Below, piece after piece: positions 18,565-20,652 of a stretch of 59,207 nt of DNA. The translations under genes were made by a program, and so were the position numbers. Source of the stretch: Escherichia phage ECO111 5-P; sequence record OR844767; one strand, 5' to 3'. The notes beneath the pieces were generated by a model, which was given only the letters and a program-made list of their open reading frames with translations, ran no database searches and was not told where the DNA came from. How positions within the stretch are numbered: position 1 is the stretch's first letter; the number at the start of each line of letters is the position of its first letter.

Positions 18565-18593
18565 TTGACATACGCGACATGTGTAATTAATAT
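18565..18593 (+). promoter_or_regulatory. sigma70-like promoter with embedded operator (copy C)
   Basis: TTGACA 18565-18570, 17-bp spacer TACGCGACATGTGTAAT, TAATAT 18588-18593. Confidence 0.5.
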
Positions 18594-18595
18594 TA

Positions 18596-18631
18596 CTCCC
18601 GAAGGTTAATCCACCAACGGGAGTTTTTTAT
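18596..18631 (+). terminator. hairpin plus U-tract between promoter -10 and start codon (terminator or leader structure)
   Basis: CTCCCG-16 nt loop-CGGGAG at 18596-18623 followed by TTTTTTATT; the right arm contains the GGGAG RBS of gene 18633. Confidence 0.45.
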
Positions 18632-18632
18632 T

Positions 18633-19166
18633 ATGGTAGACACATCAAAACCGAAGCACGCTGGCGAGTCATCCGCGCAGCGTTTCCGCAATTCAGTGAT
18701 GAACGCACTGAACCTCGACATGGACGACTTTGAAACGGACGACGCCGCGACCGACTACGTGCTCGGCCTTCTCAATTCCATGACGGACAATCAGATCGCC
18801 ATCCCGAAAGACGTTGCACCGTCGGCCGCCCGGTCATGGCAGTACGAATTCCGGGACGTCAAAGACAGCAACGATTATTCCGAATTAGTCAAAGTGCTAC
18901 GTGATGCGCTGACACAAGCCGCGTATGGTAAAGGACGCGAGCGCCACGCGAATGACCTGCCGTTCAGCCAGCAGCCGATGAACGCCATTTCTGACCTGAT
19001 CAATAGCCCGCTCGGCTTGGTGTATCAGGTATGCAAAAAGGTCGTCGAAGGCGTCAACCTGCCAACTCATGACCAAAGGGTTAGGGAGTTGCTCGGCGTG
19101 ATCAATTATACTGCCGGAATTGTCATCTGGCTAAATCGCCACCAATCAAATCCACCGAAGGAATAA
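18633..19166 (+). CDS. hypothetical protein (177 aa)
   Basis: ATG 18633; GGGAG 9 nt upstream. Confidence 0.5.
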   Translation: MVDTSKPKHAGESSAQRFRNSVMNALNLDMDDFETDDAATDYVLGLLNSMTDNQIAIPKDVAPSAARSWQYEFRDVKDSNDYSELVKVLRDALTQAAYGKGRERHANDLPFSQQPMNAISDLINSPLGLVYQVCKKVVEGVNLPTHDQRVRELLGVINYTAGIVIWLNRHQSNPPKE

Positions 19167-19176
19167 AGGGGCCACC

Positions 19177-19371
19177 ATGAAGAAGATCGCTGCGCTAACG
19201 CTGTTTGTATTGATTATCTGCGGTGTGCTGTTTGTCATTGGCCGTGTGGGCGCGGCGATCGGGTGTAACGACGTCAGCGTCCAGACCGAACTACCCACCA
19301 AATACAGCCCGTTAAGCGGCTGCTACATCAAACGAGACGGCCAATGGGAGCCGTTAGACTGGAGACTATGA
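19177..19371 (+). CDS. small membrane protein, hypothetical
   Basis: 64 aa; AAAGGGG RBS; N-terminal transmembrane-like KKIAALTLFVLIICGVLFVIG. Confidence 0.45.
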   Translation: MKKIAALTLFVLIICGVLFVIGRVGAAIGCNDVSVQTELPTKYSPLSGCYIKRDGQWEPLDWRL

Positions 19372-19637
19372 CCGTGTATGACATCGTGATCGTTTATGGC
19401 GAAGGCGCGCCAGAGATTGAGCCGAAGGGGCAGATCGCAATCGCGGAGCATTATGGTGCGAACATCATACGGGGGAACATGGGCGAGTGGCCGTGTCCGC
19501 TGTCATTGCGCGACGAACAGCGTGTGATTTATCTGCAAAAAACGCCGGAGTTTGAATGGGTAGGTCGCATCATAAAGGAAGGCTACACCCCGACTGTTAT
19601 CCACATAGATAATTTGCCAGAAGGACTTTTACCATGA
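19368..19637 (+). CDS. hypothetical protein (89 aa)
   Basis: ATG 19368 overlaps the upstream stop (ATGA); GGAG RBS. Confidence 0.45.
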   Translation: MTVYDIVIVYGEGAPEIEPKGQIAIAEHYGANIIRGNMGEWPCPLSLRDEQRVIYLQKTPEFEWVGRIIKEGYTPTVIHIDNLPEGLLP

Positions 19638-19849
19638 AAATTGCCGCAGGAGACGTTAAGCCGGGCGTACTCGCGACCATCTTTGGCGAGCAGTTCCGCC
19701 TTCGCTATATCACGTATCACAACGTCGGCAGCGTCACGCTGCGCTTCCAGCCGGGCGACGAACCGCTGTCACCGTTCACCGAGAATGACGTGCTGACCAT
19801 GACCGTTCCGCGCACATTCGAAGTCGAGGTGGACAGCGATGGCCGATAG
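19634..19849 (+). CDS. hypothetical protein (71 aa)
   Basis: ATG 19634 overlaps the upstream stop; AAGGA RBS. Confidence 0.45.
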   Translation: MKIAAGDVKPGVLATIFGEQFRLRYITYHNVGSVTLRFQPGDEPLSPFTENDVLTMTVPRTFEVEVDSDGR

Positions 19850-20093
19850 CGAATTAGAACTGAAAGCGGGCCGCACGTATCGCGGAAAACGGCCGCAGAA
19901 CCGAAACGGACTGGTGAACGACCGCACCATCCTGTACATCGGGGCCACGCACCTCCAGTATGACGGCCCGGTCGTAGGCTTTGGCCGACGCTATCCGAGT
20001 TGTACCCGCGAAGCGTTCCTGCAATGGGCCGCGCGCGACGTGACTGACGAATTACCGAAGGGGGAATATGCAGAATGGCCGATAAAAAATTGA
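19839..20093 (+). CDS. hypothetical protein (84 aa)
   Basis: ATG 19839 with GAGGTGG RBS. Confidence 0.45.
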   Translation: MADSELELKAGRTYRGKRPQNRNGLVNDRTILYIGATHLQYDGPVVGFGRRYPSCTREAFLQWAARDVTDELPKGEYAEWPIKN

Positions 20094-20587
20094 GATTCGG
20101 ACACCTCGAAACGGGTGACATGGCGCTGGAGCGTAACAGCATCCGCATCGGTTACAGCCCGGAAGTGACCTTCGCCGTGAAACGCCGCGTAGAGCGCACC
20201 ACGCCGACGCAGATCATCATCGGCAACTCGCGCTACCGGAAGGACGATGGCCGGGCCGTGGGCGAAGCCGGGTGCCTGTTTACCGAGGACGACATCGGTG
20301 AAGGGAAAACCGTCAATATCGAGATCGTAACCGAGGCTGAATTCCGGGAGATCCAGCATCTGTTCTACGAATTCAAGGAAGGCGTGCTGGCCGCGTGCGC
20401 CGGGTACGAAATCACGGCCGCAGACTTGGCCGCCCTGTTCCGCGACCGGGAAGTGCGCGAAGGGGTAGTGGCGCGCTGGTGGAAAACGAAGGAGACGATC
20501 GCCAACCTGCACAAACAGACCCGCGATTTCATGGTCGAGAAGGGCCACGGTGATCGACTGGAGCACGCCCGGAAAAGAAAGTCTTAG
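20075..20587 (+). CDS. hypothetical protein (170 aa)
   Basis: ATG 20075 with GGGGG RBS. Confidence 0.5.
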   Translation: MADKKLRFGHLETGDMALERNSIRIGYSPEVTFAVKRRVERTTPTQIIIGNSRYRKDDGRAVGEAGCLFTEDDIGEGKTVNIEIVTEAEFREIQHLFYEFKEGVLAACAGYEITAADLAALFRDREVREGVVARWWKTKETIANLHKQTRDFMVEKGHGDRLEHARKRKS

Positions 20588-20594
20588 AAACTGT

Positions 20595-20625
20595 TTGACA
20601 CACGTCGCGTGTATAACCTATATTA
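20595..20625 (+). promoter_or_regulatory. sigma70-like promoter with embedded palindromic operator (copy D)
   Basis: TTGACA 20595-20600, spacer CACGTCGCGTGTATAAC containing the perfect palindrome ACACG-TCG-CGTGT, -10 CTATAT/TATATT at 20618-20624. Confidence 0.5.
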
Positions 20626-20652
20626 TCCCCGAAGGCAACAACGGGGATTTTT
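20626..20652 (+). terminator. intrinsic terminator-like hairpin overlapping the promoter start-site region
   Basis: TCCCCG-aaggcaacaa-CGGGGA at 20626-20647 followed by TTTTT; lies between the -10 and ATG 20668. Confidence 0.5.

What the first reader, a model, noticed from the sequence alone, without database searches (positions are those of the whole stretch)
18565..20652. Terminator-like hairpins placed between promoter -10 and start codon
At 18596-18631 and 20626-20652 a GC-rich hairpin with a U-tract lies right after the promoter -10, and at 18596 the right arm contains the RBS (GGGAG). Read-through from the upstream operon would stop here while transcripts started at the local promoter begin inside or past the hairpin; at 18596 the structure could also hide the RBS.
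Basis: seen in the sequence. Interest (0 to 1): 0.5.

Follow-up and report, generated by a model that had tools for sequence, protein, structure and literature searches.

The report
Promoter with a built-in upstream-transcript terminator
Two gene junctions in this Chi-like Salmonella phage carry a conserved cassette where a strong promoter overlaps a terminator hairpin, so incoming transcripts likely stop while locally started ones escape; this design is already described in T4-type phages, so the case is tidy but ordinary.

Summary
The window is a Chi-like phage (Chivirus, Casjensviridae).

**What is there**
- At 18565-18635 and 20595-20670, a near-consensus sigma-70 promoter is followed 0-1 nt after its -10 by a 7-bp GC-rich hairpin and a T-tract.
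- At site 1 the 3' arm contains the Shine-Dalgarno GGGAG.
- These are 2 of only 9 strong hairpin+T-tract sites in 59 kb. Shuffled sequence gives 0.7.

**Why it is probably functional**
- The promoter geometry puts the start site on the last base of the 5' arm (G18601, G20631).
- RNA arriving from upstream therefore folds the full hairpin (z = -4.1 and -3.2). RNA started locally is unstructured (z = +1.25 and -0.01).
- The same layout is kept in four genera, with freely varying loops of 4-18 nt and compensatory stem changes. In Redjacvirus a completely different hairpin sits in the same position.

**Verdict**
- No transcript ends have been mapped. The long loops also predict only moderate termination.
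- The closest known system is the PeSL composite promoter-terminator cassette of T4-type phages.
- I rate it a new member of a known kind, of modest interest.

The parts
18565..18593 (+). Site 1 sigma-70 promoter: -35 TTGACA (18565-18570), 17-nt spacer carrying an operator-like motif, -10 TAATAT (18588-18593). It starts 9 nt after the stop codon of the Dam methylase gene (17869-18555).
   Evidence: conserved in four genera; Pfam Dam hit for the upstream gene
18595..18624 (+). Site 1 hairpin: 5' arm ACTCCCG 18595-18601, 16-nt loop with inner GGT/ACC stem, 3' arm CGGGAGT 18618-18624, which contains the SD GGGAG (18619-18623). The predicted start G18601 is the last base of the 5' arm.
   Evidence: -15.9 kcal/mol, z = -4.1; 100% of cells paired
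18624..18632 (+). Site 1 T-tract TTTTTTATT. It also serves as the SD-to-ATG spacer. The start codon of the 177-aa ORF is at 18633.
   Evidence: the T-run is kept even where the downstream gene is replaced
20595..20624 (+). Site 2 sigma-70 promoter: -35 TTGACA (20595-20600), 18-nt spacer with palindrome ACACGTCGCGTGT, -10 TATATT (20619-20624). This is the best promoter match in 10000-29999 (11 of 12).
20625..20648 (+). Site 2 hairpin: ATCCCCG (20625-20631), 10-nt loop, CGGGGAT (20642-20648). The predicted start G20631 is the last base of the 5' arm.
   Evidence: -11.4 kcal/mol, z = -3.2; two compensatory pairs relative to the ACTCCCG/CGGGAGT version
20648..20670 (+). Site 2 T-tract TTTTTACTTT (20648-20657), separate SD AGGGGG (20658-20663), and ATG 20668 of the 93-aa ORF.
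15253..15331 (+). Sister junction with the conventional order. The hairpin AAAGCCCGC(11 nt)GCGGGCTTT plus CTTTTG (15253-15290) lies upstream of family promoter TTGACG-17-TAATAT (15303-15331).
   Evidence: z = -3.2
11988..12016 (+). First rightward early promoter of the same family, TTGACA-17-TATTGT. It has no nested terminator.
11363..11392 (-). Leftward early promoter of the same family, TTGACG-18-TATTAT. It is followed by CCCTTCGGGG at the predicted +1 and has no U-tract.
8964..8993 (-). Second leftward promoter of the family, with spacer and -10 identical to the one at 11392. It is followed by CCCTTCGGGG and has no U-tract.

Best explanation
Each site is a composite promoter-terminator cassette at an internal junction of the rightward early operon of a Chi-like phage.

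- A strong host sigma-70 promoter is fused to an intrinsic-terminator-like hairpin and U-tract. The 5' arm of the hairpin occupies the promoter's discriminator region and start site.
- RNA polymerase arriving from the upstream unit transcribes both arms. The hairpin forms directly before the U-tract and part of these transcripts end at about 18629-18632 or 20652-20657.
- At site 1, any transcript that reads through keeps its Shine-Dalgarno buried in a stem of about -14 kcal/mol.
- Polymerase that initiates at the local promoter starts at G18601 or G20631. Its RNA lacks the 5' arm, cannot form the hairpin, passes the U-tract, and carries an open 32- or 37-nt leader.
- The net effect is that each early unit is expressed from its own co-regulated promoter and insulated from the unit before it, in only about 77-80 nt of intergenic DNA.

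Shown here: the sequence elements, their geometry, the folding contrast, and their conservation and covariation. Inferred: the start-site positions, actual termination, and RBS masking.
For: - Anatomy is as described.
- The two sites are 2 of 9 strong hairpin+T-tract sites in the window, against 0.7 in shuffles.
- Read-through RNA folds significantly (z = -4.1 and -3.2). RNA from the predicted start does not (z = +1.25 and -0.01).
- The module recurs with the hairpin starting +1 or +2 after the -10 in Chivirus, Yonseivirus (Soft, KPN N137), Enchivirus (Enc34, both sites) and Redjacvirus (Redjac, PSTCR9, PibeRecoleta, both sites).
- In 16 distinct sequences, 111 of 111 stem cells pair. Two pairs change on both sides (C-G/U-A becomes U-A/C-G) and one pair becomes G-U. 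The loop varies in length and sequence.
- Redjacvirus site 2 has an unrelated hairpin (AACCCTGTAT cccg ATACGGGGTT + T6) in the same register.
- Arm spacing of 4-18 nt argues for an RNA hairpin, not a protein-binding palindrome.
- The T-run is kept where the downstream gene and the SD-ATG spacing change, and at site 2 where the SD is separate.
- Between genera, only the module keeps nucleotide similarity; the flanking genes do not.
- The third internal junction has a hairpin+T-tract just upstream of its promoter, so every rightward junction pairs a terminator with a promoter.
- Independent annotators labelled the site-1 hairpin a terminator in Season12, Siskin and Soft.
- The analogous PeSL cassettes of T4-type phages were shown by lacZ fusions to act as both promoter and terminator (PMC2839356).
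Against: - No 5' or 3' ends have been mapped for any Chi-like phage in the searchable literature.
- The loops of 16 and 10 nt exceed the 3-8 nt typical of intrinsic terminators.
- A d'Aubenton-Carafa-type score, computed here with modern energy parameters, is +10 for site 1 and -6 for site 2. The phage's short-loop terminators score 16-40. Termination may therefore be only partial.
- ARNold found no terminators in two Chi-like genomes (PMC9783114).
- Stem covariation rests on few independent events, and gene conversion between the two sites could explain part of it.
- Other promoters of the same family work without a nested terminator (11988, 15303, the leftward pair, and two in Yonseivirus), so the hairpin is not required for promoter function.
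Confidence: 0.66

Rival explanations
1. The hairpin works mainly after transcription or as a recombination linker. In this view it protects the 3' end of upstream mRNA, masks the SD of read-through RNA, or serves as a conserved stretch of about 75 bp for cassette exchange, and true termination is weak or negligible.
For: - Terminator scores are borderline and the loops are long.
- At site 1 the 3' arm is the SD.
- In 18 of the 60 listed Chi-like records, similarity to the window stops at query position 162, which is window position 18641, about 8 nt after the ATG.
- Relatives carry different genes after an identical module, as described for PeSL-mediated shuffling.
Against: - The T-tract directly after the stem is conserved in every genus, including site 2 and Redjacvirus site 2 where the SD is separate. 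Neither a linker nor an SD mask needs a T-tract.
- Site 2 is not a mosaic boundary within Chivirus.
- These roles are compatible with termination rather than alternatives to it.
Confidence: 0.17
2. The whole hairpin lies inside the locally initiated transcript. It would then act as a leader attenuator awaiting an antiterminator, or as a 5'-terminal stem-loop that stabilises the mRNA or controls its translation.
For: - The leftward promoters of the same family are followed by a CCCUUCGGGG hairpin at the predicted +1.
- Some unrelated phage contigs have the hairpin starting at position 7 after the -10 (L029-L037).
Against: - The 5' arm begins 0-1 nt after the -10 hexamer in all 18 distinct modules.
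- Sigma-70 holoenzyme starts 6-9 nt downstream of the -10 (established knowledge), so most of the arm cannot be transcribed from this promoter.
- No alternative upstream -10/-35 pair exists; TGTAAT at 18582 has no -35 at 16-18 nt.
Confidence: 0.07
3. The inverted repeat is a DNA-level operator for a dimeric regulator that overlaps the start site.
For: - It is a perfect 7-bp inverted repeat whose arm sequence is strongly conserved across genera.
- The family clearly uses DNA motifs in the promoter spacer.
Against: - Arm spacing varies between 4, 10, 13, 15, 16 and 18 nt.
- The arms are replaced by an unrelated sequence in Redjacvirus site 2.
- Compensatory changes keep the pairing but not the sequence.
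- A T-tract always follows.
Confidence: 0.05
4. Chance juxtaposition of a promoter-like and a terminator-like sequence.
For: Promoter-like and terminator-like consensus matches as a whole are not enriched in 10000-29999.
Against: - The strict scan gives 9 sites against 0.7 expected.
- The same register occurs at two sites and in four genera.
- The chance estimate is about 1e-6.
Confidence: 0.01

Closest known systems
PeSL (promoter-early stem-loop) cassettes of T4-type phages (Arbiol et al. 2010, PMC2839356; Comeau et al. 2014, PMC4122927)
   Same: - Both are intergenic composites of a strong sigma-70 early promoter with an A/T-rich upstream region, a stem-loop that overlaps or abuts the promoter, and an SD plus start codon at the 3' end.
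- The stem-loop is proposed, and for PeSLs shown by lacZ fusion, to stop transcription coming from upstream while the cassette's own promoter drives the next gene.
- One PeSL class has the stem-loop downstream of the -10, at the start site.
- Both are associated with gene replacement at the cassette; site 1 here shows this.
   Different: - The host phage family is unrelated (Casjensviridae siphoviruses).
- The sequence shows no evident resemblance: PeSL stems are described as polyG-loop-polyC, and no direct sequence comparison was run.
- There are only 1-2 nested copies per genome, not dozens.
- Here the hairpin straddles the start site and runs into the leader, with a canonical U-tract, and at site 1 its 3' arm doubles as the SD.
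- The promoters also carry an operator-like spacer motif.
- Mini-circle formation was not examined.
Canonical intrinsic (Rho-independent) terminators
   Same: GC-rich 7-bp stem immediately followed by a run of 5-6 U, on the coding strand, 40-70 nt after the stop codon of the upstream gene.
   Different: The loops are 10 and 16 nt, against the usual 3-8 nt. The element is nested inside the next promoter rather than placed before it. Its predicted strength is below that of the phage's own short-loop terminators.
Leader or promoter-proximal terminators controlled by antitermination (for example lambda PR'-tR' with Q, or the greA leader GraL, PMC2836576)
   Same: A terminator lies within a few tens of nucleotides of a promoter.
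   Different: In those systems the start site lies upstream of the complete hairpin, so the promoter's own transcripts terminate. Here the start site splits the hairpin, so only foreign upstream transcripts can form it.

Membership tests
Intrinsic terminator | GC-rich stem of at least about 5 bp | tested here: met
   Both sites have a 7-bp perfect stem with 5 G-C pairs. Hairpin energies are -14.1 and -10.9 kcal/mol.
Intrinsic terminator | Short loop, typically 3-8 nt | tested here: not met
   The loops are 16 nt (with a 3-bp inner stem) and 10 nt. Redjacvirus site 2 has a 4-nt loop.
Intrinsic terminator | U-tract immediately 3' of the stem | tested here: met
   TTTTTTATT at site 1 and TTTTTACTTT at site 2. 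The tract is conserved in all four genera.
Intrinsic terminator | RNA 3' ends and polymerase release at the U-tract | not testable with these tools
   No transcript data are available.
Sigma-70 promoter | -35 and -10 hexamers separated by a 16-18 nt spacer | tested here: met
   TTGACA-17-TAATAT (10 of 12) and TTGACA-18-TATATT (11 of 12). The hexamers are retained across genera while the spacer partly varies.
Sigma-70 promoter | Mapped transcription start | not testable with these tools
   G18601 and G20631 are predicted from spacing and the pyrimidine-purine rule only.
PeSL-type composite promoter-terminator cassette | Early sigma-70 promoter, overlapping stem-loop, SD and ATG within one intergenic unit | tested here: met
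   definition taken from PMC2839356.
PeSL-type composite promoter-terminator cassette | Repeated, sequence-conserved copies within a genome | tested here: inconclusive
   The window has six family promoters, but only two carry the nested hairpin. Other genera have one or two per genome.
PeSL-type composite promoter-terminator cassette | Association with gene insertion or replacement boundaries | tested here: inconclusive
   Met at site 1: homology breaks at window 18641 in 18 of the 60 listed records, and different genes follow the module. Not met at site 2 within Chivirus.
PeSL-type composite promoter-terminator cassette | Demonstrated promoter and terminator activity; mini-circles | not testable with these tools
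   Needs reporter fusions and inverse PCR.
Leader attenuator (promoter's own transcript terminates) | Start site upstream of the complete hairpin | tested here: not met
   The 5' arm begins 0-1 nt after the -10 in all 18 distinct modules.
RBS-sequestering hairpin | SD paired within the stem | tested here: inconclusive
   Met at site 1, where GGGAG lies in the 3' arm. Not met at site 2 or Redjacvirus site 2, where the SD is separate and downstream.

The most novel reading that the evidence does not exclude
The cassette may be a PeSL-like mobile regulatory linker outside the T4 group.

- It would spread between Casjensviridae genera, and the same layout arises independently elsewhere. Contig L028, which has no detectable nucleotide similarity to known phages, carries two such modules with different stems.
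- It would mediate gene-cassette exchange at its borders.
- Because the terminator sits about 30 bp downstream of the promoter it overlaps, polymerase released there could be recaptured by that promoter. Upstream read-through would then be converted into fresh, RBS-open transcripts, a terminate-and-restart relay.
Probability: 0.15. Interest if true: 0.55.

Novelty: new member of a known kind. Interest (0 to 1): 0.3.

Why it matters
- It gives a concrete, testable transcription map for the poorly studied early region of Chi-like phages: four rightward units and two leftward units driven by one promoter family.
- It explains why annotation pipelines place a terminator on top of a ribosome-binding site in these genomes.
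- It extends the composite promoter-terminator design known from T4-type phages to an unrelated siphovirus family.
- The compact cassette of about 75 bp, which insulates, restarts transcription and unmasks the RBS, could be a useful synthetic-biology part if it is validated.

Tried and rejected
- Rfam at gathering thresholds over the whole window found nothing.
- The built-in promoter/terminator scan missed both hairpins because its loop limit is 8 nt, so I wrote a custom scan.
- My first viral contigs pattern was mis-specified, with an effective spacer of 19-21 nt. It returned only unrelated phages, although this accidentally revealed similar layouts there.
- Literature phrase searches for overlapping promoter and terminator found nothing relevant.
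- No transcriptome of a Chi-like phage was found. The Chi genome paper does not mention promoters or terminators.
- Pfam gave no hits for nine downstream ORFs.
- Megablast of L028 against the phage collection gave no match.
- Rejected explanations: leader attenuator, DNA operator palindrome, and chance. See the rival explanations.
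Full report
**Identity of the window.**
- Megablast of 17800-21300 matches more than 100 Chi-like phages at 90-97% identity, including Chivirus chi KM458633.
- The window + strand is the Chi minus strand. Site 1 lies between gp52 (Dam methylase; Pfam PF05869) and gp51. Site 2 lies between gp47 and gp46.
- Both sites are inside the rightward early region, which runs from a divergent control region at about 11400-11990 to about 23780.

**The observation.**
- Site 1:
  - -35 TTGACA 18565-70, 17-nt spacer, -10 TAATAT 18588-93.
  - ACTCCCG 18595-18601, a 16-nt loop, CGGGAGT 18618-24 containing GGGAG.
  - T6 at 18624-29; ATG at 18633.
- Site 2:
  - -35 TTGACA 20595-600, 18-nt spacer, -10 TATATT 20619-24.
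  - ATCCCCG 20625-31, a 10-nt loop, CGGGGAT 20642-48.
  - TTTTTACTTT, a separate SD AGGGGG at 20658-63, and ATG at 20668.
- The promoters are among the three best sigma-70 matches in 10000-29999.
- The tool's terminator scan missed the hairpins only because its loop limit is 8 nt.
- A custom strict scan found nine distinct hairpin+T-tract sites on both strands of the 59-kb window, against 0.7 in shuffles. Sites 1 and 2 are two of them.
- The hairpins are significantly stable: -15.9 kcal/mol (z = -4.1) and -11.4 kcal/mol (z = -3.2).

**A promoter family.**
- Six intergenic promoters share the -35, an A-rich upstream stretch and a conserved spacer motif: + 11988, 15303, 18565 and 20595; - 11392 and 8993.
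- They divide the early region into four rightward and two leftward units.
- Relatives down to about 61% Dam protein identity keep the same family, with a spacer palindrome of the type ACACG-NNN-CGTGT.
- The third internal rightward junction has a hairpin+T-tract (15253-15290) just upstream of its promoter (15303). Every internal rightward junction therefore pairs a terminator-like element with a promoter. At two of the three junctions the two elements are nested.

**Where transcription should start.**
- This rests on established knowledge of sigma-70 start-site selection: starts fall 6-9 nt after the -10 hexamer, most often at the 7th or 8th base, and favour a purine preceded by a pyrimidine.
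- By that rule the starts are G18601 (8th base) and G20631 (7th base). In both cases this is the last base of the 5' arm.
- A conserved YCGAA at this position is also present in family promoters that have no hairpin (11988; Soft 9794). This explains why the first loop bases (GAAGG) are conserved.
- Local transcripts thus lack at least six of the seven 5'-arm bases.
- RNA folded from these starts is no more structured than shuffles (z = +1.25 and -0.01), in contrast to read-through RNA.
- No alternative promoter upstream could include the arm.

**Comparative evidence.**
- The module (promoter, hairpin beginning +1 or +2 after the -10, T-tract, ATG) occurs in these genera:
  - Chivirus.
  - A lineage at 75% Dam identity (L006/L007).
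  - Yonseivirus (Soft, KPN N137).
  - Enchivirus (Enc34, both sites).
  - Redjacvirus (Redjac, PSTCR9, PibeRecoleta, both sites).
- Between genera, only the module keeps detectable nucleotide similarity; the flanking genes do not.
- Among 16 distinct sequences, all 111 stem cells pair:
  - Two adjacent pairs are swapped on both sides in Chi site 2 (ATCCCCG/CGGGGAT versus ACTCCCG/CGGGAGT).
  - PSTCR9 has one G-U pair.
  - The loop ranges from 10 to 16 nt, with many substitutions.
- Redjacvirus site 2 has an unrelated 10-bp hairpin with a 4-nt loop in the same register.
- The variable arm spacing and replaceable sequence argue for an RNA hairpin and against a protein-binding palindrome.
- The T-run persists where the SD is separate (site 2, Redjacvirus site 2) and where the downstream gene and spacing differ (L006/L007). 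It is therefore not merely an SD-ATG spacer.
- The covariation rests on few independent events, and gene conversion between the two sites could contribute.

**Mechanism.**
The hairpin and U-tract act only on transcripts that enter from upstream. They terminate part of them, and at site 1 they bury the SD of any that read through.
- Transcripts started at the nested promoter escape both effects.
- Predicted strength is moderate. A d'Aubenton-Carafa-type score, computed with modern energy parameters, is +10 for site 1 and -6 for site 2, against 16-40 for the phage's short-loop terminators.
- ARNold reportedly found no terminators in two Chi-like genomes (PMC9783114).
- CPT annotators did mark the site-1 hairpin as a terminator overlapping the RBS in Season12, Siskin and Soft.
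- The long loop may simply provide leader length for the local mRNA, since the loop and 3' arm form its 5' UTR. This is my inference.

**Comparison with known systems.**
- The closest described system is the PeSL cassette of T4-type phages.
- PeSLs combine sigma-70 early promoters with stem-loops that overlap the promoter in five positional classes. One class lies downstream of the -10 at the start site. An SD and ATG follow.
- PeSLs are proposed to stop transcription from upstream. Terminator and promoter functions were each shown by lacZ fusions, on different PeSLs (the stem-loop of PeSL211/210; whole PeSL206/205). PeSLs are also implicated in modular gene shuffling (PMC2839356; PMC4122927).
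- Site 1 here also behaves as a mosaic boundary:
  - In 18 of 60 listed records, similarity ends at window 18641, about 8 nt after the ATG.
  - Relatives carry different genes after an identical module.
  - In Yonseivirus the module follows an exoribonuclease gene rather than the methylase gene.
- Site 2 is not a boundary within Chivirus.
- Differences from PeSLs:
  - an unrelated phage family;
  - no evident sequence resemblance (not tested by direct comparison);
  - few copies per genome;
  - a canonical U-tract;
  - a hairpin split by the start site;
  - a 3' arm that doubles as the SD.
- I therefore rate it a new member of a known kind.

**Rivals.**
- A leader attenuator or 5' stabiliser needs a start upstream of the arm, which the geometry excludes.
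- A DNA operator is contradicted by the variable spacing and the replaced sequence.
- A purely post-transcriptional or recombination role is not excluded, but it does not explain the conserved U-tract.
- Chance is excluded by conservation and by an estimated coincidence probability of about 1e-6.

**Limits.**
- No transcript ends exist for any Chi-like phage in the searchable literature.
- Start sites, termination efficiency and RBS masking all remain inferences.

Noticed in passing
window 6771-6971 (+), 8973-8986 (-), 11372-11385 (-): A 19-nt motif, ACGCACGCCGCGTATATCA, occurs four times in a promoter-less array at 6771-6971. It also occurs once in the spacer of each leftward early promoter. 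There are 9 matches with up to 2 mismatches, against 0.8 expected. The rightward promoters carry the related palindrome ACACGTCGCGTGT. These look like binding sites for one phage regulator. The array lies about 800-1000 bp from where Chi's cos end maps, at about window 5987.
   Followed up: partly
window 11695-11937: Five direct repeats of about 29 nt (core CTTACTTGAAAAA), spaced 43-71 nt apart, lie in the divergent early intergenic region between the leftward and rightward promoters. They could be iterons or regulator sites.
   Followed up: no
window 24882-24910 (-): This is a possible third nested case in the late/lysis region. TAATAT is followed 2 nt later by hairpin TTAGCGGG-cttgt-CCCGCTAA, then T6, an SD and ATG. 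The -35 is poor (TTGTGT).
   Followed up: no
window 8940-8963 and 11339-11362 (-): Both leftward family promoters are followed at the predicted +1 by CCCUUCGGGG (a UUCG tetraloop hairpin) and a second GC hairpin, without a U-tract. This looks like a 5'-terminal stem-loop, not a terminator.
   Followed up: partly
L028 (IMGVR_UViG_3300028797_006169), minus strand, modules starting at 2273 and 1087: This phage contig has 48.6% GC and no megablast match in the phage collection. It carries two TTGACA-17-TATATT promoters. Each is followed at +1 or +2 by a different 9-10 bp hairpin, a T-tract and ATG. One has AGGAGA in the 3' arm. The nested layout is therefore not confined to Casjensviridae.
   Followed up: partly
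L029-L037 (IMG/VR contigs): A group of low-GC phage contigs has TTGACA-17-TATAAT followed at position 7 by a 9-bp hairpin and T7. This would place the whole hairpin in the promoter's own transcript, giving an RNA of about 26 nt or an attenuator. The ATG that follows opens only a 3-codon frame.
   Followed up: no
window 1-5987 versus 5988-59207: The window is circularly permuted relative to the Chi reference. By coordinate mapping, window position x corresponds to about Chi 65565 - x. The cos junction should therefore lie near window 5987, joined as in records assembled across the cohesive ends.
   Followed up: no
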